Assembly (NCBI GenBank): GCA_044507815.1 | Contig: JBIQIX010000014.1 | Location: 18,057 to 82,056 of the forward strand | Direction of reading: 5' to 3' | DNA from: Flavobacteriales bacterium | GTDB taxonomy: Bacteria > Bacteroidota > Bacteroidia > Flavobacteriales_F > PHOS-HE28 | Length of the DNA stretch: 64,000 bases | In this document: piece after piece, positions 14,136 to 64,000 of the stretch | How positions within the stretch are numbered: the stretch's first letter is position 1 | How the letters are laid out: every line of letters starts with the position of its first letter | Notes under the pieces: model-generated | What the model was told of the DNA's origin: nothing | The model's input: only the letters and a program-made list of their open reading frames with translations | Databases searched by the model: none | Program-made: the position numbers and the translations under genes

Positions 14136-17396
<3,261 letters not shown>

Positions 17397-17408
17397 GAGA
17401 GAACGGCA

Positions 17409-19343: not shown

Positions 19344-20030
19344 ATGAAAAGCCTGATGACAAACCCGGCCGGCGTGGCCTTGGCACTTTGCGGCACCGCA
19401 CTGCTGCTGGGCTGCACCCGCGACGCGGACAGTCCCGGCCTGGAGTACATGCCGGACATGTACCGCGGCCCGGCCATCGAAGCCTATGTGGACTATGGGC
19501 AGGATCCCTACTACTTCGGTGATAGCCTGGCCAAGGCCCAGCGCGCCACCCAAAGCGCAAGGTTGCCCGTGACCGGCACCATCCCATTCGCGGAAGACCC
19601 CGCCGATGCCGCTTTCAATTTCCCTTTCCCGTACCCCAACACCCAGGAAGGCTATGAGGCCGCAGGGCGCGAACTGCACAGCCCCATACCCATGACCACC
19701 GCCACCGTCGATCAGGGACGGAAGCTTTATGAGGTGTTCTGCATACAATGCCACGGACCGGCAGGCAAGGGCGATGGCACGGTGGTGAGCAAGGGTGGGT
19801 ACCCGCCACCACCCGCTTACGACGGGGCGCAATTGAAGGACCTGCCGGAAGGGAAGGTGTTTCACGCCATCACCTGGGGGCGCAACATCGCCATGGGCAG
19901 CCATGCCAGCCAACTGAACAAGAAGGAGCGCTGGCTGGTGGTGCAATACGTGAAGTACCTGCAGCACGGGGGAAAAATGCCGGGTGAGGCCGGCCAGGAC
20001 ACCACAACCACGGCCAACGCCAGTGAATAA
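19344..20030 (+). CDS. actE: Alternative complex III subunit ActE, monohaem cytochrome c lipoprotein
   Basis: Lipobox ALLLGC. Single haem motif CIQCHG with a downstream Met. Follows actD directly. ATG 19344 is preferred over the TTG 19338 used by the track. Confidence 0.88.
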   Translation: MKSLMTNPAGVALALCGTALLLGCTRDADSPGLEYMPDMYRGPAIEAYVDYGQDPYYFGDSLAKAQRATQSARLPVTGTIPFAEDPADAAFNFPFPYPNTQEGYEAAGRELHSPIPMTTATVDQGRKLYEVFCIQCHGPAGKGDGTVVSKGGYPPPPAYDGAQLKDLPEGKVFHAITWGRNIAMGSHASQLNKKERWLVVQYVKYLQHGGKMPGEAGQDTTTTANASE

Positions 20031-20040
20031 CCAAGCAGCG

Positions 20041-39232: not shown

Positions 39233-39313
39233 GCGGATGCGGGTGGATACGAAAGTAGCTGATCCGGGAAACACAATTCCCTGCATGGGTCCCGGGTCCT
39301 ATTTTCGCGCCCG

Positions 39314-40675: not shown

Positions 40676-41698
40676 TCAGGCCCAAACCGGGCAGCCCTCA
40701 CTGCAATTCCTGCACATATCGATGGATCTCCGATCGTGCAGCACCCGGTCGCGGAAAGCATTGTACTTCGCTCCGTTCCAGATCTCACTGAAACGCTGCT
40801 TGTTCAGGTCGCCCATTACCCACTTGGCATCCTTGTCGAAGCAGCAGGGAACCACCTTCCCGTCCCACGTGACCACGCAGCTATGCCACATTTTCCAGCA
40901 GCTGTTGGCTTGCCTGCCCTTGGTTTCCCATACCCCGTCCTTGTTGCGTCGATAGCGTGAATATTTTTCCTGGTTGGGGATCAACGGATGGTCATCACGC
41001 GGATCGTACACCTGCGCGGTCTTCAACCACAGGTCGTCCGCGCCGATCTGCCTGGCCAGTTTGCGCACTTCAGGGATCTGGTGTTCGTTCGGTTTCACCA
41101 CCAGGAACTGGAACACGATATGGGGGGTCAGGCTCTTCAATTTCTTCTTCCACGCCACTACGCGTTCCGCGCCTTCGATCACCTTTTCCAGCGTGCCTTC
41201 CCGGCGGTAGGCGGAATAGGTCTCCTGGTCGGTGCCGTCGATGCTGATGATCAGCCGGGACAGGCCGCTGCGCACCGTTGCCTCGGCCTTGCTGTCCGAA
41301 AGGAAATGTGCGTTGGTGCTTGTATTGGTGTAGATGCCCTTTTGGTTGGCATAGTGCACCATGTCCAGGAAACCGGGGTTGATGTACGGCTCGCCCTGGA
41401 AATAGAAGGTGAGCGCCCACAGGTCGTCCGCGAGTTCATCGATCACGCGCCGGAAGAACTCCTGCTTGAGGTTGCCGGTGGGGCGGGTGAAGGCACGCAG
41501 GCCGCTGGGACACTCTGGGCAGCGCAGGTTGCACGCGGTGGTGGGCTCCATGCTGATGCTGAAGGGCATGCCCTGGATCCCGGGGTTCCGCGTTCTTTTG
41601 GCCTGCCTGAAACTGCTCCAGATCCGATAGGCGTTCCGCATTCGGCGAACGGTGATCGGGCGGGCCCACAGGCGTGCATCGCGAAGCTGCGGCAACAT
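40676..41698 (-). CDS. Radical SAM enzyme with C-terminal SPASM/twitch-type Cys-rich domain, substrate unknown
   Basis: Radical SAM cluster motif TTACNLRCPEC (CxxxCxxC). Glycine-rich FQGEPYINP. C-terminal Cys cluster CWKMWHSCVVTWDGKVVPCCFD ... CRNCSEGC. ATG 41698 is chosen; the longest ORF starts at 41785. Confidence 0.85.
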   Translation of the reverse strand: MLPQLRDARLWARPITVRRMRNAYRIWSSFRQAKRTRNPGIQGMPFSISMEPTTACNLRCPECPSGLRAFTRPTGNLKQEFFRRVIDELADDLWALTFYFQGEPYINPGFLDMVHYANQKGIYTNTSTNAHFLSDSKAEATVRSGLSRLIISIDGTDQETYSAYRREGTLEKVIEGAERVVAWKKKLKSLTPHIVFQFLVVKPNEHQIPEVRKLARQIGADDLWLKTAQVYDPRDDHPLIPNQEKYSRYRRNKDGVWETKGRQANSCWKMWHSCVVTWDGKVVPCCFDKDAKWVMGDLNKQRFSEIWNGAKYNAFRDRVLHDRRSIDMCRNCSEGCPVWA

Positions 41699-41844
41699 GG
41701 GCGCAAGGTACCGGTTCGAGGGGCTGCAGCTTTGTGGTCGCCCGTTCCGCCGATGCCATGGGATCAGGTCAGGTTCCTGAAGCATGCCGTCATCGCCCGG
41801 TTCCTGTTACTTTCCCCGCCCATCACTGTCCTATAGTCGAGATC

Positions 41845-44319: not shown

Positions 44320-44523
44320 AGGGTCTTTTCAGGGTTGCAAAGCACGAAGCCCCGTTAAGCTGGCCCGGGGAAACGAGGGGGCCGTATTGGACGCGGGTTG
44401 TGCGCGACAATCGCGGGCGCTGGCCGGACTGAACGGCACCCTCGCATTTTTCCGGCCTCTTCTAAGCGCTTTTCGCCACCTTTGCGCGCTCCGCGCGGCG
44501 AACCCCTCCGCCGGCTTGATCAC

Positions 44524-46941
44524 ATGTGGGCTTGGCTCGCCGGAAGAATCCTGCGCAATAGGATAGGTATCTTGATCGCCGTTGGCATCCTTACGGTCTT
44601 TATGGGCTGGAAGGCGACCGCGGTGCAAATGAGCTACAAGCACGGCGGGCTGCTGCCCAAGAGCGATCCGGCCTACGGCGAATACGAGGATTTCCTGCGC
44701 ACCTTCAGCGAGGATGGCAATGTGATCGTGGTGGGCACCCAGGGCGAAGCGCTTTACACGCCTGCGAACTTCCGCCGCTGGCAGGCCCTGGGCAACGACC
44801 TGCGCGCCATTCCCGGCATCGACAGCGTGTTCAGCGAGGCCAGCCTGTTCACGCTGGTGCGCAACGACAGCCTGCAGAAATTCGAGCTGCACAAGCTGAT
44901 GGCCTGGGCGCCCGCCACGCAGCAGGGCATGGATTCGCTGAAGGCCGCCATACGCGACCTGCCCTTTTACCGCCAACTGTTGTACAACGACAGCACCAAG
45001 GCCAGCCTGATGATGGTGTTCGTGAACGCCAAACTGTTCAACACCGACAAGCGGGAAAAGGTGATCGCGCAGCTTGAGGAGCGCACCGACCGCTTTGCGC
45101 AGGAAAGCGGCCTGCCCATGCACCGCAGCGGCCTGCCGTGGGTAAGGGTGAAAAGCACCCAGCTGGTAAAGGGTGAAATGCCTGTGTTCGTGGTGCTCAG
45201 CCTCAGCATTTGTGCATTGTTGCTGCTGTTCTTCTTCCGCTCGTGGCGCGTTATGATCATCAGCCTCGGCGTGGTGGCCGTAAGCGTGGTGTGGGCCTTC
45301 GGCTTCATGGGCCTCATGGGCTACAACATCACCCTGCTGCAATCGGTGATCGCCCCGCTGCTGATCGTGGTGGGCGTGCCCAACAGCATCTTCCTGATCA
45401 ATGCCTACCACCACGACTATGTGCAGCATGGCAACAAGATGAAGGCCCTGCAGCGCATGATCAGCCGGGTGGGGGCGGCCTGCTTCATCACCAACGCCAC
45501 CAAGGCAGCGGGTTTCGCCGCCTTCATCATCACCTACAGCGACACCCTCAAGCAGTTCGGGCTGGTGGCCACCGTGGGCATCATGGGCATACTGGTCTTC
45601 GGTCTCACGCTCATCCCCATCATCCTTAGCTACATGCCCGAGCCCAAGCCCAGGCACCTGCGCCACCTCGACCGGCGCTGGCTCGACCGCAGTGTGGAGC
45701 TGATCGTGCGCCTTTCGCGCGAGCAAAGGCCGGCCATCTACGGAACCACCTTCCTGGTGGTGGTGGCGGCCTGCATAGGCATGGCCAGGTTGAAGGATGA
45801 AAGCCGCATCGTGGACGACCTGCCCGCGGATAACCCCGTGCTGGCCGACCTGCATTTCTTCGAGCGCAACTTCCATGGGGTGATGCCCTTGGAGATCATC
45901 GTGGGCACCGGGAAAAAGGGCGGCGTGCTGAAGGATGCCACGCTCAAGCGGCTCGACAAATTGGCCGATACGCTGGCCACCTACCCGGAGTTCAGCCGTC
46001 CGCTGAGCATCGTGGACGCCGTGAAATTCACCCGGCAGGCCTTCTACGGCGGCGACCCGGAACGCTATGCGCTGCTGACAGGCACCGACAAACGGTTCAT
46101 GCTGCCCTACCTGGAGAACCTCACCGGCAACAAGGAGCAGGGCGGCCGCAGCATGGGCAAGGCCTTTATCGACAGCACACTGGCCACCACCCGCGTTACC
46201 GTGCAAATGGCCGATGTGGGCACCACCCGCATGGAGGGCCTGCTCAACAAGCTTCGCGCGCAAACGGACAGCATCTTCCCGGCGGACCGCTACAACGTGG
46301 TGTTCACGGGCACCAGCGTGGTCTTCCTCAAGGGCAGCAGTTATTTGGTGAGCAACCTCGTCACCAGTCTTTTCTGGGCCATTGTCATCATCGTGGTACT
46401 GATGGCGCTGCTGTTCAATTCACTGCGCATTCTGGTGGTGGCGCTCATCCCCAACCTGGTCCCGCTGATCGTTACCGCGGGCATCATGGGCTTTGCGCAC
46501 ATCCCCATCAAGCCCAGCACCATGCTGGTTTTCGGCATTGCCCTGGGCATAGCGGTGGACAACGCCATCTTCTTTTTGGCGCGCTACCGCCTGATGGTGA
46601 AGCTGACCAAGGGCGACCTGGCCCGCAGCGTGGACAGTGCCGTGCGCGAGGTGAGCGTGGGCATCATCTACACCAGTGTGGTGCTCGTGCTGGGCTTTGC
46701 CACCTTCGCCTTTTCGCGCTTTGGCGGCATACAGGCCATGGGCATCCTCACCACCATCACCCTGCTTACCGCCATGCTCACCAACCTGCTGGTGCTGCCG
46801 TCGCTCGTGCTCTCGCTCAACAAGCGCATCATGTCAAAGGCATTCAACGAGCCCATGCTGGAGATCCTGGATGAGGAGGAGGACATTGAACTGGGCGCCC
46901 TGCAGGTGGAAAAAACCAACAACCACAACACGTCCACATGA
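44524..46941 (+). CDS. MMPL/RND-superfamily exporter (two 6-TM bundles, sterol-sensing-domain-like)
   Basis: Repeated architecture of TM1, a large periplasmic loop and a 5-TM bundle, present twice (e.g. [21 protein letters not shown]...; [20 protein letters not shown]...). Start at ATG 44524. Confidence 0.83.
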
Positions 46942-52880: not shown

Positions 52881-53111
52881 TGGAACACCATCGATGGCCC
52901 ACTTGCCCTTCAGCGCGGTTTCATGCCCTTTACGGTAACGCAGTAGATCTTGAAGCTTTCCGTTCTTCCGCTGGATATGGCCACAAGTATTCTCTTCCGG
53001 CAAGCGGCCACCCCGGCCCATTCGGAAAGTGCCGGGTCAGGCTGCCCGCGCCCGCCTTGGTGCAGCGAACATGGGCCGCCCCGCTTCCGTTAGAAAGGCC
53101 CCTGCCGTGGC

Positions 53112-53119
53112 TACCTTTG
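53112..53119 (+). promoter_or_regulatory. Bacteroidota-type -7 promoter box: TACCTTTG (sucAB promoter)
   Basis: Exact TAnnTTTG match 24 nt upstream of ATG 53143. It lies inside the longer ORF-track call that starts at 53029. Confidence 0.5.
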
Positions 53120-53142
53120 CAGCCCGGCATTCTTTTCCGGCC

Positions 53143-55950
53143 ATGGACAACAACAAGTTCCTCAGCAATATCGACCCTGCCGCGCTGGATGGCATGTACC
53201 AGCAGTACCTCGCCGACCCCTCCTCGGTATCGGGCGATTGGGCCCGTTTTTTCGACGGATTCGAATTGGCCCGCACACGCTACCCCGAGTTGCCGGGCCA
53301 GCCCGCCGCACCGGCGCAAGGCCCCGCCAACGAGCATGTGGCCAAGGAGTTCAAGGTACTGGCCCTGATCAACGGCTACCGCGAGCGCGGCCACTTGTTC
53401 ACGCGCACCAACCCCGTCCGCGAGCGCCGCACCTATACCCCCACGCTCGATCTGGAGAACTTCGGGTTGGGCCAGGAAGACCTTGATGTGGAGTTCGATG
53501 CCGGCTCCGAGATCGGCATCGGCCGGGCCACGTTGGCCAAGATCCTCGAGCATTTGAAGGCCACCTATTGCCAGAGCATCGGGGCCGAGTACCGCTTCAT
53601 ACGCGATGTGGAGCGCACCGAATGGCTGCAGCAGCGCATGGAAAAGGACCGCAATGCGCCGCAATTCACCACCGGTGAAAAGAAGGAGATCCTGCGCAAG
53701 CTGGGCCAAGCCGTGGTGTTCGAGCGTTTTTTGGGAAAGCGGTTCATCGGGCAGAAACGCTTCAGCCTCGAGGGTGGCGAAACCTTGATCCCCGCATTGG
53801 ACACGGTGATCGAGCATGGCGCCGACGCCCATGGCATAAGCGACGTGGTGATCGGCATGGCGCATCGCGGGCGCCTGAACGTGCTGGCCAACACCTTCAA
53901 CAAGACCTACGAATCCATTTTCGCCGATTTTGAGGGCCGCGACTACGAGGACAACTACGTGGAGGGCGACGTGAAGTACCACATGGGCTTCAACAGCTGC
54001 ATGGTCACCAACAAGGGAAAGGGCGTGAACCTGATCCTGGTGCCCAACCCCAGCCACTTGGAAAGCGTGGGCCCTGTAATGCAGGGGCTGTCGCGGGCAC
54101 TGATCGAAAAGAACCACAACCTCACACCGGGCAAGCTGGTGCCGGTGATCATCCACGGCGATGCGGCCATTGCCGGGCAGGGCGTGGTGTACGAGGTGGT
54201 GCAAATGGCCCGCCTGAAGCCCTACAACGTGGGCGGCACGCTGCATATCGTGGTGAACAACCAGGTGGGCTTCACCACCAACTACGTGGACGGGCGCAGC
54301 AGCACCTATTGCACGGATGTGGCCAAGGTGACCCAGTGCCCGGTGTTCCATGTGAACGGCGATGATGCCGAGGCCGTGTGCCATGTGATGAAATTGGCGC
54401 TGGACTACCGCCAGCAGTTCCAGAGCGACGTGTTCATCGACCTGCTGGGCTACCGCCGGCACGGGCATAACGAGGGTGATGAACCCAAGTTCACCCAGCC
54501 GATCCTGTACAAGTCCATCGCCACGCACAAGGACCCGCGCGCCATCTACAGCGAAAAGCTGCTGGCCAGTGGTGCCATTGAGGCCAGCGTGGCCGAGGAA
54601 ATGGAGGAGAGCTTCAACAAGCTCCTGCAGGCGCGCCTCACCGAATCGAAGGAACTGCCCAAAGCGGTGATCACCTCCTTCATGGCCGATCGCTGGATCG
54701 GGCACGAGCGGGCCACCGGGGAAGGCTTGCTGGCATCGCCCGCTACAGGCGTGAAAAAGGAATTGCTGCTCAACATCGCGGCCAAATTGGCCGAGGTGCC
54801 CAAGGGCATGAAGTTCTTCAATAAGCTCGAGCGGATCCTGCATGAGCGCGCCAAAATGGTGGCCGAGGACAGGCTGGACTGGAGCATGGGTGAGTTGCTG
54901 GCCTACGGCTCGCTGCTGTGCGAGGGCCACTCGGTGCGACTTACCGGCCAGGATGTGGAGCGGGGCACCTTCAGCCACCGCCATGCCGTGGTGAAGGTGG
55001 AGGACAGCGAGGAGGAATACATCCACCTGAAACACCTGCAGGAAGGGCAGGCCCTGATGCAGGTGTACAATTCGCCCCTGAACGAATATGCCGTGCTGGG
55101 CTTTGAGTATGGCTACGCACTGGCCACCCCGTCCAGCCTTACGCTGTGGGAGGCGCAGTTCGGCGATTTCGTGAACGGCGCACAGATCATCATCGACCAG
55201 TACATCACCGCGGCCGAGGAAAAATGGAACACCATGAGCGGCCTGGTGATGCTGCTGCCCCACGGCTATGAGGGCCAGGGTGCCGAGCACAGCAGTGCAC
55301 GGCTGGAAAGGTTCCTGCAACAATGCGCCGAGCTCAACATCATTGTGGCCAATCCTACCACGCCCGCCAATTTCTTCCACCTGTTGCGCCGGCAGCTGGC
55401 CTGGAATTTCCGCAAGCCGCTGATGGTGTTCACCCCCAAGAGCCTGTTGCGCCATCCGCGTTGCGTCAGCACCATGGATGAGCTTGCCGATGGCAGGTTC
55501 CACGAGGTGTACGATGATGCCACGGCCGAGCCGGACAAGGTGAGCACTTTGATCCTGTGCCAGGGCAAGGTATATTACGAACTGCTGGAGGCCAAGGAGG
55601 AATCCGCGGCCACGGACGTGGCGATCGTGCGGGTGGAACAGCTTTATCCGTTGCCCGCGCCCCAATTGGCGGCCATCTTCAAGCGTTACCGCAACGTGCA
55701 GGAGGTGCGCTGGGTGCAGGAGGAACCGCGCAACATGGGCCCGGCCACGTACATGAATGAACAGTTGCCCGGTGTGGAAGGTGCGCCGGCCATCGGCGGG
55801 CTGAAGATCATCTCGCGCCACGCCAGCGGTCCCCCGGCCACTGGAAGCGGTGTGCGCAGCGCCAAGCAGCAGAAGCAGTTGTTGGCCGAGGCCTTCGCCG
55901 ACCGGCCCGCGGCCCAGGCCAAGCGCAGCAAAACAAAGGTGCGTGCCTGA
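53143..55950 (+). CDS. sucA: 2-oxoglutarate dehydrogenase E1 component
   Basis: MDNNKFLSNIDPAALDGMYQQYL.., ..LINGYRERGHLF..TNP.., ..GMAHRGRLNVLAN.., ..HGDAAIAGQGVVYE.., ..LLPHGYEGQGAEHSSARLERFLQ. Confidence 0.97.
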   Translation: MDNNKFLSNIDPAALDGMYQQYLADPSSVSGDWARFFDGFELARTRYPELPGQPAAPAQGPANEHVAKEFKVLALINGYRERGHLFTRTNPVRERRTYTPTLDLENFGLGQEDLDVEFDAGSEIGIGRATLAKILEHLKATYCQSIGAEYRFIRDVERTEWLQQRMEKDRNAPQFTTGEKKEILRKLGQAVVFERFLGKRFIGQKRFSLEGGETLIPALDTVIEHGADAHGISDVVIGMAHRGRLNVLANTFNKTYESIFADFEGRDYEDNYVEGDVKYHMGFNSCMVTNKGKGVNLILVPNPSHLESVGPVMQGLSRALIEKNHNLTPGKLVPVIIHGDAAIAGQGVVYEVVQMARLKPYNVGGTLHIVVNNQVGFTTNYVDGRSSTYCTDVAKVTQCPVFHVNGDDAEAVCHVMKLALDYRQQFQSDVFIDLLGYRRHGHNEGDEPKFTQPILYKSIATHKDPRAIYSEKLLASGAIEASVAEEMEESFNKLLQARLTESKELPKAVITSFMADRWIGHERATGEGLLASPATGVKKELLLNIAAKLAEVPKGMKFFNKLERILHERAKMVAEDRLDWSMGELLAYGSLLCEGHSVRLTGQDVERGTFSHRHAVVKVEDSEEEYIHLKHLQEGQALMQVYNSPLNEYAVLGFEYGYALATPSSLTLWEAQFGDFVNGAQIIIDQYITAAEEKWNTMSGLVMLLPHGYEGQGAEHSSARLERFLQQCAELNIIVANPTTPANFFHLLRRQLAWNFRKPLMVFTPKSLLRHPRCVSTMDELADGRFHEVYDDATAEPDKVSTLILCQGKVYYELLEAKEESAATDVAIVRVEQLYPLPAPQLAAIFKRYRNVQEVRWVQEEPRNMGPATYMNEQLPGVEGAPAIGGLKIISRHASGPPATGSGVRSAKQQKQLLAEAFADRPAAQAKRSKTKVRA

Positions 55951-56028: not shown

Positions 56029-57357
56029 ATGGCCGAGATCGAAGTGAAAGTGCCCAGCCCCGGTGAAAGCATCAGCGAAGTGCGCATTGCACAATGGCTG
56101 GTGGCCGACGGCGATACCGTGAAGAAGGACCAAGTGATAGCCGAAATCGACAGCGACAAGGCCACCTTGGAGCTCAACGCCGAGGAAGCTGGAAAGATCA
56201 GCCTGCTGGCCGAGGCCGACCAAACGGTGAACGTGGGCGATGTGGTGGCGAAGATCGACACCAGTGTAAAGGTGGAGGAGAAGAAGGAGAGCGGCAAGGA
56301 ACAAGCGAAAGGGAAGGAAGAAGAGAAAGGAAAGGAAAAGGAGGAGGGAGGAAAAGAAGAGGCAAAAGCGAAAGAAGGGGGGAGTGATGGGGCGAAAGAG
56401 AAGGAAGATGGAAAAGTGAAGGCCCCGGCTGAAAAGAAGGATGGCGGCAAAAGCGATGGCGCCGCCCATGCCACCCCGGTGGCCAAGGCCATGATGGCCG
56501 AGAAGGGCATTGCCGGCGGCGACGTAAAGGGAACCGGACCGCAGGGCCGCATCACGCGTGGCGATGTGGAGGCCTATATCGCCGGCGGCCTGTCGGCACC
56601 CGTGCAGATGAACGGCTGGGGCGGAACGCGCAACAGCACCAGCACCAAAATGAGCACCCTGCGCAAGAAGGTGGCCGAGCGGCTGGTGAGCGTGAAGAAT
56701 GAAACCGCCATGCTCACCACCTTCAACGAAGTGGATATGAGCGCGGTAATGGCCGTGCGCGAGAAATACAAGGACAAGTTCAAGGAGAAGCATGGGGTAA
56801 GCCTGGGCTTCATGTCCTTCTTCACCAAGGCCGTTACCGAGGGCCTGCGGTTGTTCCCCAACATCAACGCGCAGCTCGACGGGGAGAATATCGTGAACTA
56901 TGACTATGCCGATATCGGCATAGCGGTCAGCTCGCCCAAGGGCTTGATGGTGCCGGTGGTGCGCAACGCGGAGAAAATGAGCCTGGCCGAGATCGAGAAG
57001 GCGATCAAGGAACTGGCGATCAAGGCCCGCGACGGCAAGCTGAGCTTGTCGGAAATGACCGGTGGCACCTTCACCATCACCAATGGCGGTGTGTTCGGCA
57101 GCATGCTCAGCACGCCGATCATCAACCCGCCGCAGAGCGCCATCCTGGGCATGCACAACATTGTGGAGCGGCCGGTGGCGGTGAACGGCCAGGTGGTCAT
57201 TCGGCCGGTGATGTACGTGGCGTTGAGCTACGACCACCGCATTGTGGACGGCAAGGAAAGCGTGAGCTTCCTGTACAAGCTGAAGGAGATGCTGGAAGAC
57301 CCCGCCAAACTGGTATTGGGCGGCAAGGATCCGGGCGAGATACTGGCGGGGCTATAG
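56029..57357 (+). CDS. sucB: Dihydrolipoyllysine-residue succinyltransferase (2-oxoglutarate dehydrogenase E2)
   Basis: Lipoyl domain ..[13 protein letters not shown]... Peripheral subunit-binding domain [14 protein letters not shown]....[14 protein letters not shown]. Catalytic ..[15 protein letters not shown]... Confidence 0.97.
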
Positions 57358-57653
57358 CCGCCTGCGGCCGATGGCAGCGGCCAGGATCGGTGCATTCGTG
57401 GTATTCCCAAGAAGGCCATTACCGTTAGCAAAGGTTAATGCGCCCAACATGGGCGTGTTGACAAGTGCCTGAATGTGCGGGAAAAGGCGTGGTGGGCACG
57501 GCTCTATGTTTGGCCTGGTCGTACACCACCCTCGGAAGGCAAGTGAATTCCTGCAAGGCATCCACAGGGCATGAAAGCCCGGCTTTATTAAGCGGACAGC
57601 AGCGGTGAACAAGGACTTGCAGGGCGGGACCGGCCGATCCTATATCCGCCTAC

Positions 57654-60600
57654 ATGGTTGATCAACTACCCCCCGCCCCGGCAACAAAATCCGAGAAACG
57701 CTTCTTCCCCGGCCGGGCATTGTCCTTCTTGCGCAACCTGGCCCTGGCCGCAATGGCCCTGCTTTTCTGGCAGGGTGAGGCGTATGCCACCCACGCCATG
57801 GGGGGCGAGCTTACCTACCGTTGCTTGGGCAACAACCGCTGGGAAGTGACCTTGAATTTCTACCGCGACTGCAACGGCGTTGCCGCGCCCACCAATTGCT
57901 CCAACGGGCTCGAGTTCAGGGTGCGGTCGGCCAGCTGCGGGGCCAATTTCACGCAGTGCTTCCCCAACACGCCCACGGTGGAGGTCATCACGCCCATTTG
58001 CCCATCGGAGACCGACCGCTGCGTGAGCTCCTCGGGCACGTACGGCGTTCAGAAGTACACCTACAAACGGGTCGTTGACCTGGGCAGCTATGCCAGCTGC
58101 AATGCCGACGATTGGTTCTTCTCATGGTCGCTGTGCTGCCGCAACAACGCCATCACCTCGCTGAACAACCCCGGCAACCGCGACCTCTACCTGGATGCGC
58201 GGCTCAACAAGGCCGCCGGTGCATGCAACAACTCGCCCACCTTCACCAACTCGCCCGCCGCCTTCTACTGCATCGGCGAACAGATCAGCTACAACCCCGG
58301 CGCGGTGGATGTTGATGGCGATTCATTGGTGTACTCCTTGATCGCGGCCCGCGGGGCCGGAGGAACCAACATTCCTTACAACAACAACTACTCGGCGGCC
58401 CAGCCCATACGCAACACCGGCGGGGCGAACGCCGTGAGCATCAATCCGCAAACAGGCACCATGACGGTTACGCCCAGCGTGATCCAGACCGCCGTGGTGA
58501 CCTACCAGGTGCAGGAATACCGCAACGGCGTGCTGATGGGCACCATTACCCGTGATGTGCAGTTCGTGGTCAGGCCCTGCGCGGGCAATTCCGCGCCAAC
58601 CGTCAGCGGCATCAACGGCACCTCCAACTATTCCATGCAGGTATGTGCCGGCACACCGGTTTCCTTTACGGTGAACAGCAACGACGCCAACGCCGGGCAG
58701 GCCGTTACCATGGGTTGGAACAGCGGTATCCCAGGCGCCTCGTTCACCGCGGCGGGCTCGCCATTCCCCACGGGCACCTTCACCTGGACCCCCACGGTGG
58801 CCAACATCGGCAACAACACCTTCACCGTGCATGTGGAGGACAATGGTTGCCCGATCAAGGGGACCAACGACTTCGGCTTCTCCATCCTGGTCACCCCGCC
58901 CGCCACCCCCGCGGACGCCGGCCCTGACTTCTCCGTTTGCGGCACCAGCGCAACCATGGCCGCGGTGCTGCCCTATTCCGGCCTGCAGGGCACATGGTCC
59001 GTGGTAAGCGGCAGCGGAACCTTCTCCAACGTGAACTCGCGCACCGCAACGGTCAGCGGCCTGGCACCCGGGGCCAATGTATTCCGTTGGACGGTGAATT
59101 ACCAGACCTGCGGCACCACCTCGGCCACGGTAACCGTTACCAGCTACAACAATGCACAGGCGGCGGCCAATGCCGGCCCTGACCAGCAGATCTGCGGCCC
59201 CCCCAACAGTGTGACACTCGCGGGCAACACCGTGGCCGCACCGGGCACGGGCACATGGAGTTTCGTGACCGGATCGGGAACCATCACCGATCCATCCTCG
59301 CCCACAACAACCGTAACCGGCCTGGCCAATGGCGTGAACCGTCTGCGGTGGACCATCAACAACGGGCCATGCGGCACCACGCAGTCGGAAATGACGGTAA
59401 CCGTGTTCAACAGCGCCCAAGCGGCGGCCAATGCCGGACCCGACATCAACATCTGCTCAACCACCAGCACGGTGACCATGGCGGGCAATGCGGCCACCGC
59501 ACCGGCAACCGGGTTGTGGACCTTGGTAAGCGGCAGCGGCACGATCACGAACCCCGCCAGCCGGAACACCACGATCACCGGGTTGCCCGTGGGCGTGCAC
59601 GTGTTCCGCTGGACCATCAGCAACGGGCCTTGCACCCCCGGCTCAACTTCCGATGAAGTGACCGTGACCGTCTATTCCAGCACAAGCCCCAACGCCAACG
59701 CCGGCCCCGACCAGCAGATCTGCGGCTCTGGCGGCACCACATTGGCGGCCAATACACCCATTGCGCCCGCCAGCGGTACATGGACAGTGGTAAGCGGGAC
59801 CGGGACCTTCGCCGACGCCAACAACCCGAACACGGCGGTTTCCGGCCTTGCCCTGGGGCCCAACGTATTCCAATGGACCGTGAATAACGGGCCATGCGCG
59901 AACGGGGTCACCACCAGCCAGGTAACCGTTACCACCTTCGATCCTGCCGTGGGCGGCGCCAACGCAGGCCCCGACCAATCGTACTGCCTGCCCACCACAT
60001 CGGTAACCATGGCCGCCAGCGCGGCACCGGCGCCCGCACAGGGCACCTGGACCTTGGTGAGCGGGTCGGGCACCATCACCAATCCCCATCAGCGCAACAC
60101 AACGGTTACCGGCCTTACGGTGGGGGAAACCGTGCTGCGCTGGTCCATTACCAATGGCCCCTGCATGGTCACCCCGCCGAGCGACGAGGTGTCCATCTTC
60201 ATTTACGACAACAATGCCCCGGCCGCCAACGCCGGGCCTGACCAACAATTGTGCACGCCGGCCACCGCCACGAACCTGGCCGGCAACACGCCTGTTTTCC
60301 CGGCCACTGGCCAATGGACCGTAGTGGCGGGCAACGGCACCTTCGCCAACCCTGCGGATCCCACCACTTTGATCACCGGTCTGGCCGTGGGCGTGAACAC
60401 CTTCCGCTGGACCCTCAACAACGGGCCATGCGCCAACCCGGTCACGCAGGATGAGGTTTCTGTTGTGGTCTACGACGCCTCCACGCCGGTGGCCCATGCC
60501 GGCCCCAACCAAGAGCTGTGCACGCCCACCAACAGCACCACCTTGGCCGGCAGCGCCGTGATCGCGCCCGCCACCGGGACCTGGACGTTGGTGAGCGGGA

Positions 60601-63600
60601 CCGGCACCATCGTTTCGCCGAACAGCCCCAGCAGCCAAGTGACCGGCCTGGCCGTAGGCGATAACGTATTCCGGTGGACCGTGCTCAACGGCAACTGCGC
60701 CAACCCGACAACCACGAGCGATGTCCGCATACGGGTGTTCAACAGCAGCAACCCGGTGGCCAATGCCGGCCCCGACCAAACGCTTTGCTCAAGCTCCAAT
60801 TCCACCGTGCTTGCCGGAAGCAGCCTCACCTATCCCGCATCGGGCATGTGGACCCTGCAAAGCGGTGGAGGCACCATTGTAACGCCGAACAGCCCCACCA
60901 GCGCAGTAACCGGCTTGCCGGTAGGGGTGAACGTGTTCCGCTGGACCGTGTCGAACGGGCCTTGCCCCAACGGCAACACCTTCGATGAAGTGGCCATTAC
61001 CGTTTTCGAGAATGCGCATCCGCCGGTAACGGCCACCGGCACCCAAAGCATTTGTGTGCCCACCTCGGCCAACACGGTAACCGTTACCGGGTCCACCCCG
61101 GTGGCACCGGCAACCGGGCAATGGACACTGATCAGCGGCAGCGGCACCATCACCTCGCCGGGCAGCCCGGTCACCACCATCACCGATATGGGCTATGGCG
61201 TGAACGTGTTCCAATGGACCGTGGCCAACGGGCCCTGTGCCTTCCCCCTGAACAGCGCCCAGGTATCGATATCCGTGTACAATGCAACCATGCTCACGGC
61301 CGATGCCGGGCCTGACCAAAGCCTGTGCACGCCCATCACCAGCACTACCCTGTCGGGCAGTGCGCTCATCGCACCGGGCACCGGCCACTGGACCGTGGTC
61401 TCGGGCACGGGAGCATTCGCCGATGCCAGCGATCCGAACACCACCGTGTCGGGGCTTTCACTCGGCAATAACGTATTCCGCTGGAGCGTGGACAACGGAC
61501 CCTGCGCCGCGCCCAGCTCCGATGACGTTTCCGTATCGGTGTTCAACGGAAGTGCGCAGCAGGCCAACGCCGGCCCCGACCAGTCGCTTTGCAGCACCTC
61601 GCCGGCCACCACCTTGGCGGCCAATGCGGCCATAGCGCCGGCCACCGGCTCGTGGAGCGTGTTGCAGGGCACGGCCACCTTCGCCAACCCCACCGTGGCC
61701 AACACCGCGGTAAGCGGCCTTTCCACCGGGGTGAACATCCTGGTGTGGTCGATCAACAACGGCGCCTGCGGCACCAGCACAGCCCAGGTGAGGATCACCG
61801 TGTACAACGATGCCAATCCCGTGGCCAATGCCGGTCCCGACCAGGAACTGTGCACGCCGGCCACGGCAACCACCCTTTCCGGCAGCAGCGTATTGGCACC
61901 GGCCACGGGCCAATGGACCCTGGTGAGCGGCACGGGCAACATCGTATCGCCCAACAGCCCCACTACCCAGGTGAACGGCCTGGGGCTGGGCCATAACGTT
62001 TTCCGCTGGACGGTGAACAACGGGGCCTGCGCCAGTGGCATCACCACGGATGAAGTGACCATCAGCGTATTCAGCGGCACGGCACAGGTGGCCAATGCCG
62101 GTCCCGATCAGGACCTGTGCACCCCGGCCAGCACGGCCAGCCTGGCCGCCAACCTGGCAGTGGCCCCCGCCCAGGGCACTTGGAGCGCCGCCGCGGGGAT
62201 CAGCTTCAGCGACATCCATTCGCCCTTGGCAACCGTGAGCGGCCTGCAAGTGGGCGACAACATCCTCACCTGGACCCTTGACAACGGCAGCTGCGGTACC
62301 ACCAGCGACCAAGTGAACATCCGTGTATTCGATGCCGGCCAGCCCTTGGCCAATGCCGGTCCCGACCAGGAACTGTGCAGCCCCGGCAATTCAACCACAC
62401 TGTCCGGCAGCCCGCTCATCTATCCCGCCACGGGCACATGGACCCTGGTGAGCGGAAGCGGGGCCATTGCCGATCCGTCAGCCCCTGCAACGGCCATTAC
62501 CGGCCTGGCCATCGGCCCCAACGTATTCCGCTGGACCGTATCCAACGGCGATTGTTGGACCAATAGCCAGGATGAGGTCACCATCACCTTGTTCGACAGC
62601 ACGGTAAGCGGTTCCGATGCGGGCCCCGACCAGCAGATCTGCACGCCCCGCTCGTCGGTGACCATGGCCGCCAGCGCGGCCCCCTTCCCGGCACAAGGCA
62701 CATGGAGCCTGGTGAGCGGCGGAGGAACCATCGCCGATATCCACAGCCCCACCACCGCCGTGACCGGATTGCCCGTGGGCGAGAACAAGTTCCGCTGGAC
62801 CGTTTCCAATGGTGCATGCCCGGTAAACCCGCCCAGCGATACGGTGTCCATCTTCGTGTTCGACGCCAATAACCCGGTGGCCGATGCCGGCCCCGACCAA
62901 AGCCTGTGCACCCCGGGCAGCTCCACCACACTGGCCGGCAGCAGCGTAACCTTCCCGGCGCAGGGCACTTGGACCCTGGTGAGCGGTGGCGGCACGCTGG
63001 CCAATGCCAATGATCCGCACAGTGCGGTCAACGGATTGCCCATCGGCGAGAACGTGTTCGAGTGGACGGTGCTCAATGGACCGTGCGCCGATCCGATGAC
63101 CAAGGACCGCGTGAGCATCTTCGTGTACGATGAAACGCAGGCCAGCGCCAATGCCGGCCCGGACCAAAGCCTGTGCACGCCGAACACCAGCGCAACGTTG
63201 GCCGCCAACGCGGCGGCCTTCCCGGCGGTGGGCACATGGAGCCTGGCGCAGGGCCAAGGCACCATCACCGATCCCGCCTCGCCCACAACAACCGTCACCG
63301 GCCTGGGCATTGGTGAAAACGTATTCGTGTGGACCATCGACAACGGCCCTTGCGCCAACGGCATCACCACGGACGCGGTGAGCATCTTCCTCTTCGACTC
63401 CAATACACCCAATGCGGACGCAGGCCCTGACCAAGAACTTTGCCTGCCCACCACCAGCACCACCCTGGCCGGCAGTGCGGCCAATTATCCCGCCACCGGC
63501 ACATGGACCGTGGTGCAGGGCACCGGCATCTTTGCCGACCAGCATGCCCCCAACACCGCGGTAAGCGGACTCTTCGTGGGCACCAACATCTTCCGCTGGA

Positions 63601-64000
63601 CCGTGAGCAACGGCCTGTGCAGCAACAGCAGCAGCGAGGTCACCATCTTCCTCTTCGACGATACGAACCCGGATGCCAGCGCCGGCCCTGACCAGCAGCT
63701 CTGCACACCGGGCAGCAGCATCACCATGGCTGGCAGCAACGTGATCTTCCCGGCGCAGGGCACATGGACCCTGGTGAGCGGCACCGGCGTGATCACTGAT
63801 CCGCATTCACCCACCACCGCAGTGGTTGATCTGGCCGTGGGCACCAGCGTATTCGCCTGGACCGTGGACAACGGACCGTGCAGCAACGGCATCACCACCG
63901 ACCTGATGCAGGTGGAGGTGTTCGACCAGCAGAATCCCGTGGCCCATGCCGGTCCCGACCAGGAACTGTGCACGCCCGGCACCACCGCCACATTGGCCGG
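57654..64000 (+). CDS. Giant secreted cell-surface repeat protein (adhesin-like; probable T9SS cargo), N-terminal 2,115+ codons; 3' end beyond the window
   Basis: My manual translation from ATG 57654 finds no stop through 64000. The ORF track lists no plus-strand ORF in this frame here, as expected for an unterminated ORF. Signal peptide ..LALAAMALLFWQGEAYA|THAMGGELTYRC. Cys-rich head with cadherin-like NPGAVDVDGDSLVYSL / INPQTGTMTVTP. Then 20 tandem modules. Confidence 0.9.
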   Translation, partial: MVDQLPPAPATKSEKRFFPGRALSFLRNLALAAMALLFWQGEAYATHAMGGELTYRCLGNNRWEVTLNFYRDCNGVAAPTNCSNGLEFRVRSASCGANFTQCFPNTPTVEVITPICPSETDRCVSSSGTYGVQKYTYKRVVDLGSYASCNADDWFFSWSLCCRNNAITSLNNPGNRDLYLDARLNKAAGACNNSPTFTNSPAAFYCIGEQISYNPGAVDVDGDSLVYSLIAARGAGGTNIPYNNNYSAAQPIRNTGGANAVSINPQTGTMTVTPSVIQTAVVTYQVQEYRNGVLMGTITRDVQFVVRPCAGNSAPTVSGINGTSNYSMQVCAGTPVSFTVNSNDANAGQAVTMGWNSGIPGASFTAAGSPFPTGTFTWTPTVANIGNNTFTVHVEDNGCPIKGTNDFGFSILVTPPATPADAGPDFSVCGTSATMAAVLPYSGLQGTWSVVSGSGTFSNVNSRTATVSGLAPGANVFRWTVNYQTCGTTSATVTVTSYNNAQAAANAGPDQQICGPPNSVTLAGNTVAAPGTGTWSFVTGSGTITDPSSPTTTVTGLANGVNRLRWTINNGPCGTTQSEMTVTVFNSAQAAANAGPDINICSTTSTVTMAGNAATAPATGLWTLVSGSGTITNPASRNTTITGLPVGVHVFRWTISNGPCTPGSTSDEVTVTVYSSTSPNANAGPDQQICGSGGTTLAANTPIAPASGTWTVVSGTGTFADANNPNTAVSGLALGPNVFQWTVNNGPCANGVTTSQVTVTTFDPAVGGANAGPDQSYCLPTTSVTMAASAAPAPAQGTWTLVSGSGTITNPHQRNTTVTGLTVGETVLRWSITNGPCMVTPPSDEVSIFIYDNNAPAANAGPDQQLCTPATATNLAGNTPVFPATGQWTVVAGNGTFANPADPTTLITGLAVGVNTFRWTLNNGPCANPVTQDEVSVVVYDASTPVAHAGPNQELCTPTNSTTLAGSAVIAPATGTWTLVSGTGTIVSPNSPSSQVTGLAVGDNVFRWTVLNGNCANPTTTSDVRIRVFNSSNPVANAGPDQTLCSSSNSTVLAGSSLTYPASGMWTLQSGGGTIVTPNSPTSAVTGLPVGVNVFRWTVSNGPCPNGNTFDEVAITVFENAHPPVTATGTQSICVPTSANTVTVTGSTPVAPATGQWTLISGSGTITSPGSPVTTITDMGYGVNVFQWTVANGPCAFPLNSAQVSISVYNATMLTADAGPDQSLCTPITSTTLSGSALIAPGTGHWTVVSGTGAFADASDPNTTVSGLSLGNNVFRWSVDNGPCAAPSSDDVSVSVFNGSAQQANAGPDQSLCSTSPATTLAANAAIAPATGSWSVLQGTATFANPTVANTAVSGLSTGVNILVWSINNGACGTSTAQVRITVYNDANPVANAGPDQELCTPATATTLSGSSVLAPATGQWTLVSGTGNIVSPNSPTTQVNGLGLGHNVFRWTVNNGACASGITTDEVTISVFSGTAQVANAGPDQDLCTPASTASLAANLAVAPAQGTWSAAAGISFSDIHSPLATVSGLQVGDNILTWTLDNGSCGTTSDQVNIRVFDAGQPLANAGPDQELCSPGNSTTLSGSPLIYPATGTWTLVSGSGAIADPSAPATAITGLAIGPNVFRWTVSNGDCWTNSQDEVTITLFDSTVSGSDAGPDQQICTPRSSVTMAASAAPFPAQGTWSLVSGGGTIADIHSPTTAVTGLPVGENKFRWTVSNGACPVNPPSDTVSIFVFDANNPVADAGPDQSLCTPGSSTTLAGSSVTFPAQGTWTLVSGGGTLANANDPHSAVNGLPIGENVFEWTVLNGPCADPMTKDRVSIFVYDETQASANAGPDQSLCTPNTSATLAANAAAFPAVGTWSLAQGQGTITDPASPTTTVTGLGIGENVFVWTIDNGPCANGITTDAVSIFLFDSNTPNADAGPDQELCLPTTSTTLAGSAANYPATGTWTVVQGTGIFADQHAPNTAVSGLFVGTNIFRWTVSNGLCSNSSSEVTIFLFDDTNPDASAGPDQQLCTPGSSITMAGSNVIFPAQGTWTLVSGTGVITDPHSPTTAVVDLAVGTSVFAWTVDNGPCSNGITTDLMQVEVFDQQNPVAHAGPDQELCTPGTTATLA
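58914..64000 (+). repeat. In-frame tandem array: 19 complete and 1 partial coding modules of 255-273 bp (85-91 aa)
   Basis: Module starts (the codon before the AGPD motif) are at 58914, 59169, 59430, 59697, 59961, 60228, 60495, 60762, 61029, 61302, 61566, 61827, 62094, 62352, 62616, 62883, 63150, 63417, 63678 and 63945. All are in phase with 57654. Recurrent DNA islands include GCCAATGCCGGCCCCGACCAG, TTCCGCTGGACCGTG and AACGGGCCNTGCGCC. Confidence 0.9.

What the first reader, a model, noticed from the sequence alone, without database searches (positions are those of the whole stretch)
57654..64000. Open-ended giant ORF that the supplied ORF track does not show: a surface repeat protein of more than 2,115 aa
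The reading frame set by ATG 57654 has no stop codon up to base 64000 (6,347 nt). Because it never terminates inside the window, it is absent from the ORF list. The list shows only other-frame plus-strand ORFs and a ladder of minus-strand ORFs (58323..63991), which are compositional shadows.

The predicted product has three parts:
- a signal peptide (..AMALLFWQGEAYA|THAMGGELTYRC)
- a Cys-rich head of about 375 aa
- a long array of Ig-sized modules

This layout resembles the very large T9SS-dependent gliding and adhesion surface proteins of Bacteroidota. The total length, the C-terminal sorting domain and any partner genes lie beyond the window, so its system context is unknown. It is by far the largest non-housekeeping object here.
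Basis: partly seen in the sequence, partly recalled or inferred. Interest (0 to 1): 0.7.

Follow-up and report, generated by a model that had tools for sequence, protein, structure and literature searches.

The report
Giant T9SS surface fibre gene, truncated
The open-ended reading frame is real: it is the first two thirds of a roughly 3,245-residue cell-surface fibre protein of an uncultured Flavobacteriales bacterium, which its relatives export through the type IX secretion system and probably tether to the cell wall, so it is an uncharacterised member of a known class rather than a new kind of system.

Summary
The frame from ATG 57654 has no stop in 2,115 codons, against about 50 expected by chance. 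GC3 is 0.82, and substitutions against orthologues fall mainly on codon position 3.

The product has four parts:
- a Sec signal peptide
- a 375-aa head of three beta-sandwich domains (15 Cys; D1-D2 have no Pfam or NCBIfam family)
- 19 complete K319L-like PKD repeats
- the start of a 20th repeat

The 3' end could not be recovered. The window aligns colinearly with a full-length orthologue (78% identity, one gap). That orthologue has 31 repeats and a T9SS type B sorting domain. Of 50 intact orthologues, 49 are 3,243-3,272 aa.

Wherever the gene's end is captured, a PorP/SprF gene follows (61 of 61 loci), and then a PorE-like gene (60 of 61). This is the gene order of Aureispira ghpA-ghpB-ghpC and of F. 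johnsoniae Fjoh_3952-3951-3950, whose fusion forms static foci.

Most likely this is a fixed-length, cell-wall-tethered adhesive fibre of about 130 nm, not a SprB-type gliding adhesin.

I rate it a new member of a known kind, of moderate interest.

The parts
57358..57653 (+). Intergenic region between sucB and the giant gene. It contains one TAnnTTTG match (57505-57512), the Bacteroidota -7 box consensus recalled from my own knowledge.
   Evidence: Sequence read. The motif count across the window is at chance level (10 found, 10.6 expected), so this is only a candidate promoter. No sigma-70-type promoter was found.
57654..64000 (+). 5' part (2,115 codons) of the giant gene, open at the window's end. 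It is about 65% of an expected gene of roughly 3,245 codons.
   Evidence: No stop codon. Colinear 78% identity to residues 1-2116 of the 3,243-aa orthologue in L005, with one gap.
57654..57788 (+). Sec signal peptide, aa 1-45. It has a basic n-region, the hydrophobic stretch NLALAAMALLFW, and cleavage at AYA|TH.
   Evidence: AF2 places a helix at aa 20-38 followed by coil. The motif [AVS]-x-A|[TS]-H-x-x-G is conserved in 100 homologues: Ala at -1 in 92, His at +2 in 96. No dedicated signal-peptide predictor was available.
57789..58241 (+). Head domain D1, aa 46-196. A Cys-rich beta-sandwich at the mature N-terminus, the presumed distal tip. It has no Pfam, NCBIfam or close PDB relative.
   Evidence: AF2 pLDDT 92 and pTM 0.87. 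Best Foldseek PDB match has E = 6e-3 and TM <= 0.48. No Pfam hit at E <= 10. 3,807 clusters at 50% identity match at E <= 1e-3; in nearly all of the 150 listed the match starts within about 70 residues of the N-terminus.
58242..58583 (+). Head domain D2, aa 197-310. A cadherin-like beta-sandwich carrying the invariant D-x-D-G-D-S-L motif; Ca2+ binding is my inference.
   Evidence: Invariant D219, G222, D223 and L225. The profile matches cadherin-23 weakly (E = 0.0036). Foldseek finds protocadherin and Ig arrays.
58584..58916 (+). Head domain D3, aa 311-421. An Ig-like domain of He_PIG / Big_9 type.
   Evidence: Pfam He_PIG E = 9.7e-5 and Big_9 E = 1.1e-4, both just below their cut-offs. The AF2 model is confident here.
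58917..63947 (+). 19 complete K319L-like PKD repeats, aa 422-2098. Each is 85-91 aa (261-267 nt) and has two conserved Cys (AGPDQxxC ... NGxC).
   Evidence: Pfam PF22352, 327.6 bits, 16 stretches. Segmentation and identity matrix. DNA periodicity. Homologous to GhpA residues about 4600-5750.
63948..64000 (+). Start of the 20th repeat (AHAGPDQELCTPGTTATLA...), cut by the end of the window.
   Evidence: It corresponds to repeat 20 of 31 in the L005 orthologue.

Best explanation
The window holds the first 2,115 codons of a single gene, expected to be about 3,245 codons long. It encodes a type IX secretion system (T9SS) type B substrate of an uncultured, high-GC Flavobacteriales bacterium.

Shown directly: the intact coding frame, the signal peptide motif, a three-domain beta-sandwich head, and 19 complete K319L-like PKD repeats plus the start of a 20th.

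Shown in colinear orthologues only: 31 repeats in all, a C-terminal type B sorting domain, and two co-oriented downstream genes, one for a PorP/SprF-family outer-membrane barrel and one for a PorE-like OmpA-type protein. Peptidoglycan binding by the latter is inferred from P. gingivalis PorE.

Inferred mechanism:
1. Sec exports the protein to the periplasm.
2. The T9SS translocon passes it across the outer membrane.
3. The cognate PorP-like shuttle collects its C-terminal domain and keeps it on the surface.
4. The PorE-like partner ties that complex to the cell wall.

The result would be a static fibre of 34 beta-sandwich domains, about 130 nm long at roughly 4 nm per domain. It would present the conserved D1-D3 head at its distal end as the binding module, for cell-cell, cell-surface or prey/particle adhesion. 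The ligand is unknown. The low DNA identity between repeats would limit recombination between them, which fits the near-constant length.
For: - Real gene.
- Domains: K319L-like PKD. Head model with pLDDT 92.4 showing three beta-sandwiches, which matches Ig and cadherin arrays.
- Orthology: 78% identity over 2,116 aligned positions with one gap to L005. sucA-sucB lie upstream, as in the window, in 46-49 of 83 loci.
- Full architecture in L005: 31 repeats plus CHU_C at aa 3155-3241.
- C-terminal and partner families: TIGR04131, TIGR03519 and a PorE family hit in L003 and L001; PorP_SprF in L005.
- Partner survey: CTD captured in 61 loci, PorP in 61 of 61, PorE-like in 60 of 61.
- Length constancy: 49 of 50 intact orthologues are 3,243-3,272 aa. 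Every repeat is positionally conserved with a gap fraction near 0.
- Literature: PorE-PorP-type B cargo complex, and the proposal that PorE-linked cargo is non-mobile (PMC9143113). [quoted passage not shown] GhpA-GhpB(PorP)-GhpC(PorE) is an outer-membrane-anchored fibre (bioRxiv 10.1101/2024.01.29.577165).
Against: - The C-terminal third, the sorting domain and both partner genes are not in the window. They are inferred from orthologues at 56-93% head identity.
- No near-identical contig could be found.
- No T9SS core gene lies in the window. T9SS presence rests on three type A cargo proteins.
- Static anchoring, the adhesive role of the head and the physical length are inferences. No ligand, expression or localisation data exist.
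- A minority of relatives have longer arrays (3,429 aa; more than 3,760 aa; 4,119 aa), so the window's own length is not certain.
Confidence: 0.75

Rival explanations
1. It is a GhpA-like 'grappling hook': several parallel protomers form a rigid, fixed-length hollow stem anchored by the PorP/PorE homologues. The head would catch prey or partner cells, possibly as part of a predatory (ixotrophic) lifestyle.
For: - The only strong PDB sequence hit is GhpA. Window aa 543-1392 match GhpA 4884-5724 at 298 bits, and three repeats alone score 359 bits.
- Part of that GhpA stretch lies in the cryo-EM-resolved heptameric base region, 4151-5009.
- The gene order is the same: cargo, PorP homologue, PorE homologue.
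- Length is strictly conserved across 49 species, in line with the uniform 240 nm length of the hooks.
Against: - The N-terminal module differs. GhpA has a hook of about 1,400 aa resembling Antigen I/II adhesins. The D1-D2 head here does not match GhpA; the profile hit covers only positions 338-531.
- The stalk is about half as long.
- Homology is limited to the repeat type found in the last 12 or so GhpA repeats.
- Oligomerisation was not testable, and T6SS co-occurrence was not examined.
Confidence: 0.12
2. It is a SprB-like mobile gliding adhesin, propelled along the cell surface by the gliding machinery.
For: [quoted passage not shown]
- NCBI names orthologues 'gliding motility-associated C-terminal domain-containing protein'.
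- The same D1 head tops many proteins with SprB repeats: 14 of 20 sampled.
Against: - There are no SprB repeats (PF13573) in the window protein or in L005.
- The upstream genes are sucA and sucB, not sprC/sprD; the sprCDBF operon is recalled from my own knowledge.
- A PorE-like gene follows PorP in 60 of 61 loci. In F. johnsoniae, the mobile substrates lack PorE-like genes and the PorE-linked Fjoh_3952 fusion shows only static foci.
- The NCBI name is only the old name of the TIGR04131 domain.
Confidence: 0.08
3. It is a released or surface-bound polymer-binding scaffold, for example a carbohydrate-binding PKD array serving nutrient capture, rather than an adhesin fibre.
For: From my own knowledge, PKD-type domains occur in secreted glycoside hydrolases and proteases of Bacteroidota. 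One Foldseek hit is an endo-fucoidan hydrolase carrying Ig-like modules.
Against: No catalytic or known carbohydrate-binding domain was found in 3,243 aa of the orthologue. The type B CTD with dedicated PorP and PorE partners argues for retention on the cell.
Confidence: 0.04
4. It is an artefact: a non-coding stretch that happens to be open in a high-GC sequence, a mis-assembled repeat array, or a pseudogene.
For: High-GC DNA gives long spurious ORFs, and many are seen in this window. Several orthologues in long-read MAGs are broken by frameshifts.
Against: - Zero stops against 50 expected.
- Third-position substitution bias.
- 327-bit Pfam hit.
- 49 intact orthologues.
- Repeats are only 59% identical at the DNA level, with no long exact repeats.
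- In the frameshifted MAG copies, the CTD still sits about 9.7 kb from the start, which points to sequencing errors.
Confidence: 0.01

Closest known systems
Fjoh_3952-Fjoh_3951-Fjoh_3950 of Flavobacterium johnsoniae: a type B CTD putative adhesin, its cognate PorP/SprF-like shuttle, and a PorE homologue (PMC12618676). The P. gingivalis PG1035-PorP-PorE complex is the same kind of system (PMC9143113).
   Same: Orthologues show the same three-gene order: type B cargo, then PorP/SprF family, then PorE-like. The expected behaviour is the same too: secretion through a dedicated shuttle and static tethering to the cell wall.
   Different: The passenger part was not compared, because no Fjoh_3952 sequence was at hand. 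Here it is a 3,245-aa fibre with a D1-D3 head and 31 K319L-like PKD repeats. Static behaviour is inferred here, not observed.
GhpA grappling hook protein of Aureispira sp. CCB-QB1, with GhpB and GhpC (PDB 9flp; bioRxiv 10.1101/2024.01.29.577165)
   Same: It has a signal peptide, an N-terminal binding module, a long Ig-like repeat stem and a T9SS CTD, with PorP and PorE homologues downstream. Its C-terminal-most 12 or so repeats (about 4600-5750) are clearly homologous to the repeats here.
   Different: GhpA is 5,898 aa with 52 repeats and a hook of about 1,400 aa resembling Antigen I/II adhesins. Here there are about 3,245 aa, 31 repeats and an unrelated 375-aa head. Heptamer formation and a role in predation are unknown here.
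SprB gliding adhesin of F. johnsoniae
   Same: [quoted passage not shown]
   Different: No SprB repeats and a different operon context. [quoted passage not shown]
K319L-like PKD domain family (Pfam PF22352; KIAA0319L / AAV receptor PKD domains, PDB 6nz0 and 2yrl)
   Same: The repeat unit is a member of this family: 327.6 bits, and direct hits to 2yrl and 6nz0.
   Different: The eukaryotic proteins have about five such domains in a membrane receptor. Here 31 are strung together in a bacterial secreted fibre.

Membership tests
T9SS type B substrate (TIGR04131 / PF13585 CHU_C cargo) | N-terminal Sec signal peptide | tested here: met
   It has a basic n-region, a hydrophobic core and an A-Y-A|T-H site. 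The [AVS]-x-A|[TS]-H motif is conserved in 100 homologues. No dedicated predictor was run.
T9SS type B substrate (TIGR04131 / PF13585 CHU_C cargo) | C-terminal type B sorting domain | not testable with these tools
   It lies beyond base 64000, and no extension of this genome was found. It is present in colinear orthologues: TIGR04131 at 66.7 and 56.7 bits, PF13585 at 91.9 bits in L005, and a tblastn match in 61 loci.
T9SS type B substrate (TIGR04131 / PF13585 CHU_C cargo) | Cognate PorP/SprF-family gene immediately downstream | not testable with these tools
   It lies outside the window. It is present in 61 of 61 orthologous loci that include the gene's end: TIGR03519 at 264.8 bits and PF11751 at 286 bits.
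T9SS type B substrate (TIGR04131 / PF13585 CHU_C cargo) | Host is a Bacteroidota organism with a T9SS | tested here: inconclusive
   No T9SS core gene is in the window. Three other ORFs carry type A CTDs (PF18962). All 80 closest loci are Flavobacteriales/Bacteroidota MAGs.
GhpA grappling hook | N-terminal hook module of about 1,400 aa resembling Antigen I/II adhesins | tested here: not met
   The head is 375 aa and forms three beta-sandwich domains. The head profile matches GhpA only through its Ig/PKD part (profile positions 338-531). D1 has no close PDB relative.
GhpA grappling hook | Stem of tandem Ig-like repeats homologous to GhpA's | tested here: met
   298 bits to GhpA 4884-5724. Seven significant stretches fall within GhpA 4619-5739. 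The match is to the C-terminal-most repeat type only.
GhpA grappling hook | ghpB (PorP) and ghpC (PorE) homologues downstream | not testable with these tools
   They lie outside the window. They are met in orthologues: 61 of 61 and 60 of 61 loci.
GhpA grappling hook | Heptameric parallel assembly into a rigid hollow stem | not testable with these tools
   No multimer prediction or imaging was available. Constant length is compatible with this but is not evidence for it.
SprB-type gliding adhesin | SprB repeats (PF13573) | tested here: not met
   No PF13573 hit in the window protein or in the full L005 orthologue.
SprB-type gliding adhesin | sprC-sprD-sprB-sprF-type operon (recalled from my own knowledge) without an adjacent porE-like gene | tested here: not met
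   Upstream lie sucA and sucB. Orthologues have a PorE-like gene after PorP. Mobile cargo lacks such a gene.
K319L-like PKD domain (PF22352) | Score above the Pfam gathering threshold | tested here: met
   327.6 bits against a cut-off of 27, in 16 stretches.

The most novel reading that the evidence does not exclude
The module is a second, structurally distinct kind of grappling-hook-like appendage. Protomers with exactly 31 repeats would assemble laterally into a rigid fibre of fixed length, anchored by PorP and PorE homologues. The fibre would be tipped by the D1-D3 head, an uncharacterised domain family of about 3,800 sequence clusters with an invariant His at position 2 of the mature N-terminus. 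That head would then be a widespread, unrecognised binding module of Bacteroidota surface fibres, used by abundant uncultured Flavobacteriales (many of the MAGs come from activated-sludge and freshwater samples) to capture cells or particles.
Probability: 0.12. Interest if true: 0.6.

Novelty: new member of a known kind. Interest (0 to 1): 0.35.

Why it matters
The gene belongs to a large clade-wide family. At least 80 species-level genomes of uncultured Flavobacteriales carry it. Databases label it only as a 'gliding motility-associated C-terminal domain' protein.

Three points give a specialist something to work with:
- The cargo-PorP-PorE gene order predicts a static, cell-wall-tethered fibre. 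That prediction can be tested against the model recently proposed for F. johnsoniae and P. gingivalis.
- The repeat number (31) and total length are almost invariant across species whose heads are only about 57-83% identical to this one. This suggests that length itself is under selection, as with the uniform Aureispira grappling hooks.
- The head domain D1 has no Pfam, NCBIfam or close PDB relative, yet it caps thousands of long T9SS cargo proteins with different stalk types. It is a good candidate for a new curated domain family and for ligand hunting.

None of this overturns current understanding.

Tried and rejected
- **Extending the window.** An exact 90-nt match of the window's 3' end found nothing in genome contigs or metagenome contigs. 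A protein search with the last 400 aa gave at most 70% identity, and every listed protein was shorter than 740 aa. A metagenome locus search gave at most 67% identity. The closest relative, L004, has 93% head identity but sits on a 5.9-kb contig that ends in repeat 4. The true 3' end therefore remains unseen.
- **Locus search with the 24-sequence head alignment.** I repeated it with 9 closer sequences.
- **Assembly artefact or recent repeat amplification.** Rejected. TRF found nothing and copies are 60-75% identical at the DNA level. Each repeat has its own orthologue in L005, including the deviant repeat 9 that lacks AGPDQ.
- **Close structural relative for head domain D1.** None was found: only generic Ig-like matches at E >= 6e-3 and TM <= 0.48. 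The whole head gave only generic Ig and cadherin array matches.
- **LPMO-like histidine brace.** I considered this because of the invariant His next to the cleavage site. I rejected it because the His is residue 2, not 1, of the predicted mature chain, and D1 has no second His.
- **Heavy canonical Bacteroidota O-glycosylation.** The motif D-[ST]-[AILVMT], recalled from my own knowledge, occurs only 3 times in 2,115 aa, so it is not a prominent feature despite 23% Ser plus Thr.
- **Promoter.** There is no sigma-70-type site. The single TAnnTTTG match upstream is not more than chance across the window.
- **NCBIfam on the window fragment.** No hit, as expected without the CTD.

Full report
**1. 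Observation**

Translating window 57654-64000 on the + strand gives 2,115 codons with no stop. The other five frames of the same stretch carry 10-78 stops. 200 shuffles of the stretch give a mean of 50 stops and never fewer than 29.

ATG 57654 is the first possible start after the in-frame stop at 57606-57608. Orthologues start at the same methionine.

GC at the three codon positions is 0.53/0.59/0.82. The GC3 value matches sucA, sucB and polA of the same window.

Differences from orthologous genes fall mainly on the third codon position: 0.19/0.13/0.42 per site against L005 and 0.06/0.04/0.31 against L004. This frame is therefore the one under purifying selection.

**2. Anatomy inside the window**

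- Signal peptide. Residues 1-45 look like a Sec signal peptide. They have a basic n-region, the hydrophobic stretch NLALAAMALLFW, and an A-Y-A|T-H site. In 100 homologues with a complete N-terminus the motif is [AVS]-x-A|[TS]-H-x-x-G, with Ala at -1 in 92 and His at +2 in 96.
- Head. Residues 46-421 carry 15 cysteines. AlphaFold2 with 121 homologues models the head with high confidence (pLDDT 92.4, pTM 0.87) as three consecutive beta-sandwich domains.
  - D1 (46-196) is Cys-rich.
  - D2 (197-310) carries an invariant D-x-D-G-D-S-L motif and resembles cadherin repeats.
  - D3 (311-421) is a He_PIG/Big_9-type Ig domain that scores just under the Pfam cut-offs.
  - D1 and D2 have no Pfam hit even at E <= 10, and the window protein as a whole has no NCBIfam hit at E <= 0.1.
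  - D1 modelled alone (pLDDT 92) has no close solved relative. The best Foldseek match has E = 6e-3 and TM <= 0.48.
- Repeat array. From residue 422 there are 19 complete repeats of 85-91 aa, then the first 17 residues of a 20th. Pfam calls them K319L-like PKD domains (PF22352, 327.6 bits against a cut-off of 27). Each repeat has two conserved cysteines (AGPDQxxC ... NGxC) and two conserved tryptophans.
- Divergence of the copies. Amino-acid identity averages 50% (range 33-67%). Nucleotide identity averages 59% (maximum 71%). The DNA period is 261-267 nt, and Tandem Repeats Finder reports nothing. An assembly artefact of near-identical repeats is therefore not a concern.

**3. What lies beyond the window**

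Direct extension failed, so the rest is inferred from relatives.

A scan of species-representative genomes with the head found 80 loci, all in uncultured Flavobacteriales/Bacteroidota MAGs. The closest is labelled Cryomorphaceae, with 93% head identity.

The window protein aligns to residues 1-2116 of the 3,243-aa protein of L005 at 78% identity with a single one-residue gap. Each repeat therefore has its own orthologue. This includes the deviant repeat 9, which lacks the AGPDQ motif.

The L005 protein consists of the same head, 31 repeats, and a CHU_C / type B T9SS sorting domain at residues 3155-3241.

Of 50 orthologues that are intact in their locus, 49 are 3,243-3,272 aa and one is 3,429 aa. 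A few others are still open at more than 3,580 to more than 3,760 aa, and one cluster representative is 4,119 aa.

In an alignment of 27 orthologues, every one of the 31 repeats is present with a gap fraction near 0. The head (0.66-0.68 mean pairwise identity) and the CTD (0.69) are the best-conserved parts. The five repeats nearest the CTD (R27-R31) are the least conserved, at 0.50-0.56.

The expected length of the window's gene is thus about 3,245 codons, that is about 3.4 kb more.

**4. Neighbours**

Upstream in the window are sucA (53029-55950) and sucB (56029-57357). The same pair lies upstream of the orthologue in 46-49 of 83 loci, which supports positional orthology.

Downstream, every locus that includes the gene's end has a PorP/SprF-family gene right after it (61 of 61). 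It is followed by a PorE-like gene in 60 of 61; the exception is cut by the end of the locus.

Family assignments were checked with curated models:
- TIGR04131: 66.7 and 56.7 bits
- TIGR03519: 264.8 bits
- PorE family NF052230: 89.9 bits, below its cut-off of 600, on a truncated protein
- PF11751: 286 bits

The precomputed PD40, CarboxypepD_reg and OmpA hits match the PorE domain layout described in PMC9143113.

The rest of the window is ordinary chromosome: polA, nusA, infB, ruvB, dus, rpsB, respiratory genes, and three other proteins with type A T9SS sorting domains.

**5. How it most likely works**

Established work on the families involved:
- Type B cargo is collected and retained by a cognate PorP/SprF-like outer-membrane barrel.
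- In P. gingivalis, PorE binds peptidoglycan and PorP. The authors proposed that non-mobile type B cargo is tethered through PorP-PorE, whereas mobile cargo such as SprB has only a PorP-like partner (PMC9143113).
- In F. johnsoniae, the Fjoh_3952 fusion shows only static foci; its gene is followed by the shuttle Fjoh_3951 and the PorE homologue Fjoh_3950. [quoted passage not shown]
- The Aureispira grappling hook protein GhpA is encoded with GhpB (PorP homologue) and GhpC (PorE homologue). It forms an outer-membrane-anchored fibre of uniform length (bioRxiv 10.1101/2024.01.29.577165).

GhpA is also the only strong hit of the window protein among solved structures. The repeats match GhpA residues about 4600-5750, the repeats nearest its sorting domain.

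By analogy, I infer the following. The protein is exported by Sec and the T9SS. It is held by its PorP-like partner and tied to the wall by the PorE-like partner. It stands as a fibre of 34 beta-sandwich domains, with the D1-D3 head at the far end as the binding module. At about 4 nm per domain that gives roughly 130 nm. This per-domain figure is my estimate, in line with 52 repeats plus a hook in the 240-nm GhpA fibre.

The shown steps are the gene, its domains, and the architecture and gene order in orthologues. The inferred steps are secretion, static tethering, extension, and adhesion by the head.

**6. Rivals**

- GhpA-like multimeric hook. This is possible: the repeat type, gene order and conserved length all fit. 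However, the head is unrelated to GhpA's hook of about 1,400 aa, the stalk is half as long, and oligomerisation could not be tested.
- SprB-like gliding adhesin. This is unlikely. There are no SprB repeats, the operon context is different, and a PorE-like partner is present.
- Enzyme or polysaccharide scaffold. No catalytic or known binding domain supports this.
- Artefact or pseudogene. This is excluded for the part seen. The frameshifted copies in some MAG contigs, several of them long-read assemblies, keep the CTD at about 9.7 kb from the start, which looks like sequencing error.

**7. The head as a family**

D1 alone finds 3,807 clusters at 50% identity (E <= 1e-3; 1,266 at E <= 1e-10). 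In nearly all of the 150 listed hits the match starts within about 70 residues of the N-terminus, in fragments and proteins of about 110 to 4,800 aa.

Of 20 long members, 17 end in a type B and 2 in a type A sorting domain. Their stalks are built from SprB repeats (14), PKD (7), K319L-like PKD (7) or Ig_7 (6).

One MAG that carries the orthologue (L015) also carries a paralogue, L018. It has the same head (72% identity) on an unrelated body with a type A tail.

The head is thus a mobile, widespread cap for T9SS surface fibres that no curated family describes.

**8. Comparison with the known, and novelty**

The object works like the type B cargo-PorP-PorE modules already described. It shares its repeat type with GhpA.

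It is not a GhpA orthologue, because the head test is not met. It is not a SprB, because the repeat, operon and PorE tests are not met.

NCBI already annotates orthologues, but only generically.

I rate it a new member of a known kind. The points of interest are the near-invariant 31-repeat length and the uncurated head family.

Interest is 0.35.

The most novel reading that the evidence does not exclude is a second kind of grappling-hook-like multimeric appendage with a new tip. I give it a probability of about 0.12.

Noticed in passing
window 57789-57800 (aa 46-49, T-H-A-M): The His at position 2 of the predicted mature N-terminus is present in 96 of 100 homologues (motif [AVS]-x-A|[TS]-H-x-x-G). 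A free N-terminal X-His could be a metal site or matter for folding. It is not an LPMO-type brace, because there is only one His in D1 and it is not residue 1.
   Followed up: partly
window 490-2607 (+), 30374-31285 (+), 38219-39286 (-): Three other predicted T9SS substrates with type A sorting domains (PF18962). The first is a Peptidase_M43 plus PKD protein. The 30374-31285 hit (26.5 bits) falls just below the Pfam cut-off of 27. They are indirect evidence that the organism has a T9SS.
   Followed up: partly
window 12716-18803 (+) and 22582-24387 (+): A respiratory cluster: a multihaem cytochrome c, a 1,105-aa molybdopterin/4Fe-4S protein and an NrfD-type membrane subunit, which looks like alternative complex III. 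COX1 follows. The ORFs between them (19870-21243 on the minus strand, 21285-22568 on the plus strand) have no Pfam hit.
   Followed up: no
window 40676-41785 (-): A radical SAM/SPASM-domain protein, the kind of maturase that often sits beside a small peptide gene. Its neighbourhood was not examined.
   Followed up: no
window 41674-44319 (+) and 44398-46941 (+): A DUF5686 plus CarboxypepD_reg protein, followed by an MMPL/RND-type transporter.
   Followed up: no
L018 4193-7720 (same MAG, SVL2_sbin.57, as the orthologue in L015): A paralogue with the same D1-D3 head (72% identity to the window's). Its body is different (MopE-type metal-binding motif, Dictyostelium-type Cys repeats) and it ends in a type A sorting domain. 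The head is therefore shuffled between stalks and secretion signals within one genome.
   Followed up: partly
L020; L030, L036, L040, L043; protein P0124: Length variants of the orthologue: 3,429 aa (about two extra repeats), still open at more than 3,580 to more than 3,760 aa, and 4,119 aa (about ten extra repeats). These contrast with 3,243-3,272 aa in 49 other species.
   Followed up: partly
L001, L002, L003, L016, L021, L022, L047, L066: In these MAG contigs, several from long-read (tig/ONT-named) assemblies, the orthologue is split by frameshifts into 2-4 called genes. The CTD still lies about 9.7 kb from the start. Gene callers therefore report several 'hypothetical proteins' where there is one giant gene.
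   Followed up: partly
window 61032-61304 (repeat 9, aa 1127-1217): This is the only repeat lacking the AGPDQ motif (ATGTQSIC instead), and it has a 2-aa insertion. The same deviation occurs at the same position in L005, which marks positional orthology of the repeats.
   Followed up: yes
window 57505-57512: A TATGTTTG match to TAnnTTTG, the Bacteroidota -7 promoter consensus (recalled from my own knowledge), lies 142 nt upstream of the start codon. The motif is no more frequent in the window than chance (10 found, 10.6 expected).
   Followed up: partly
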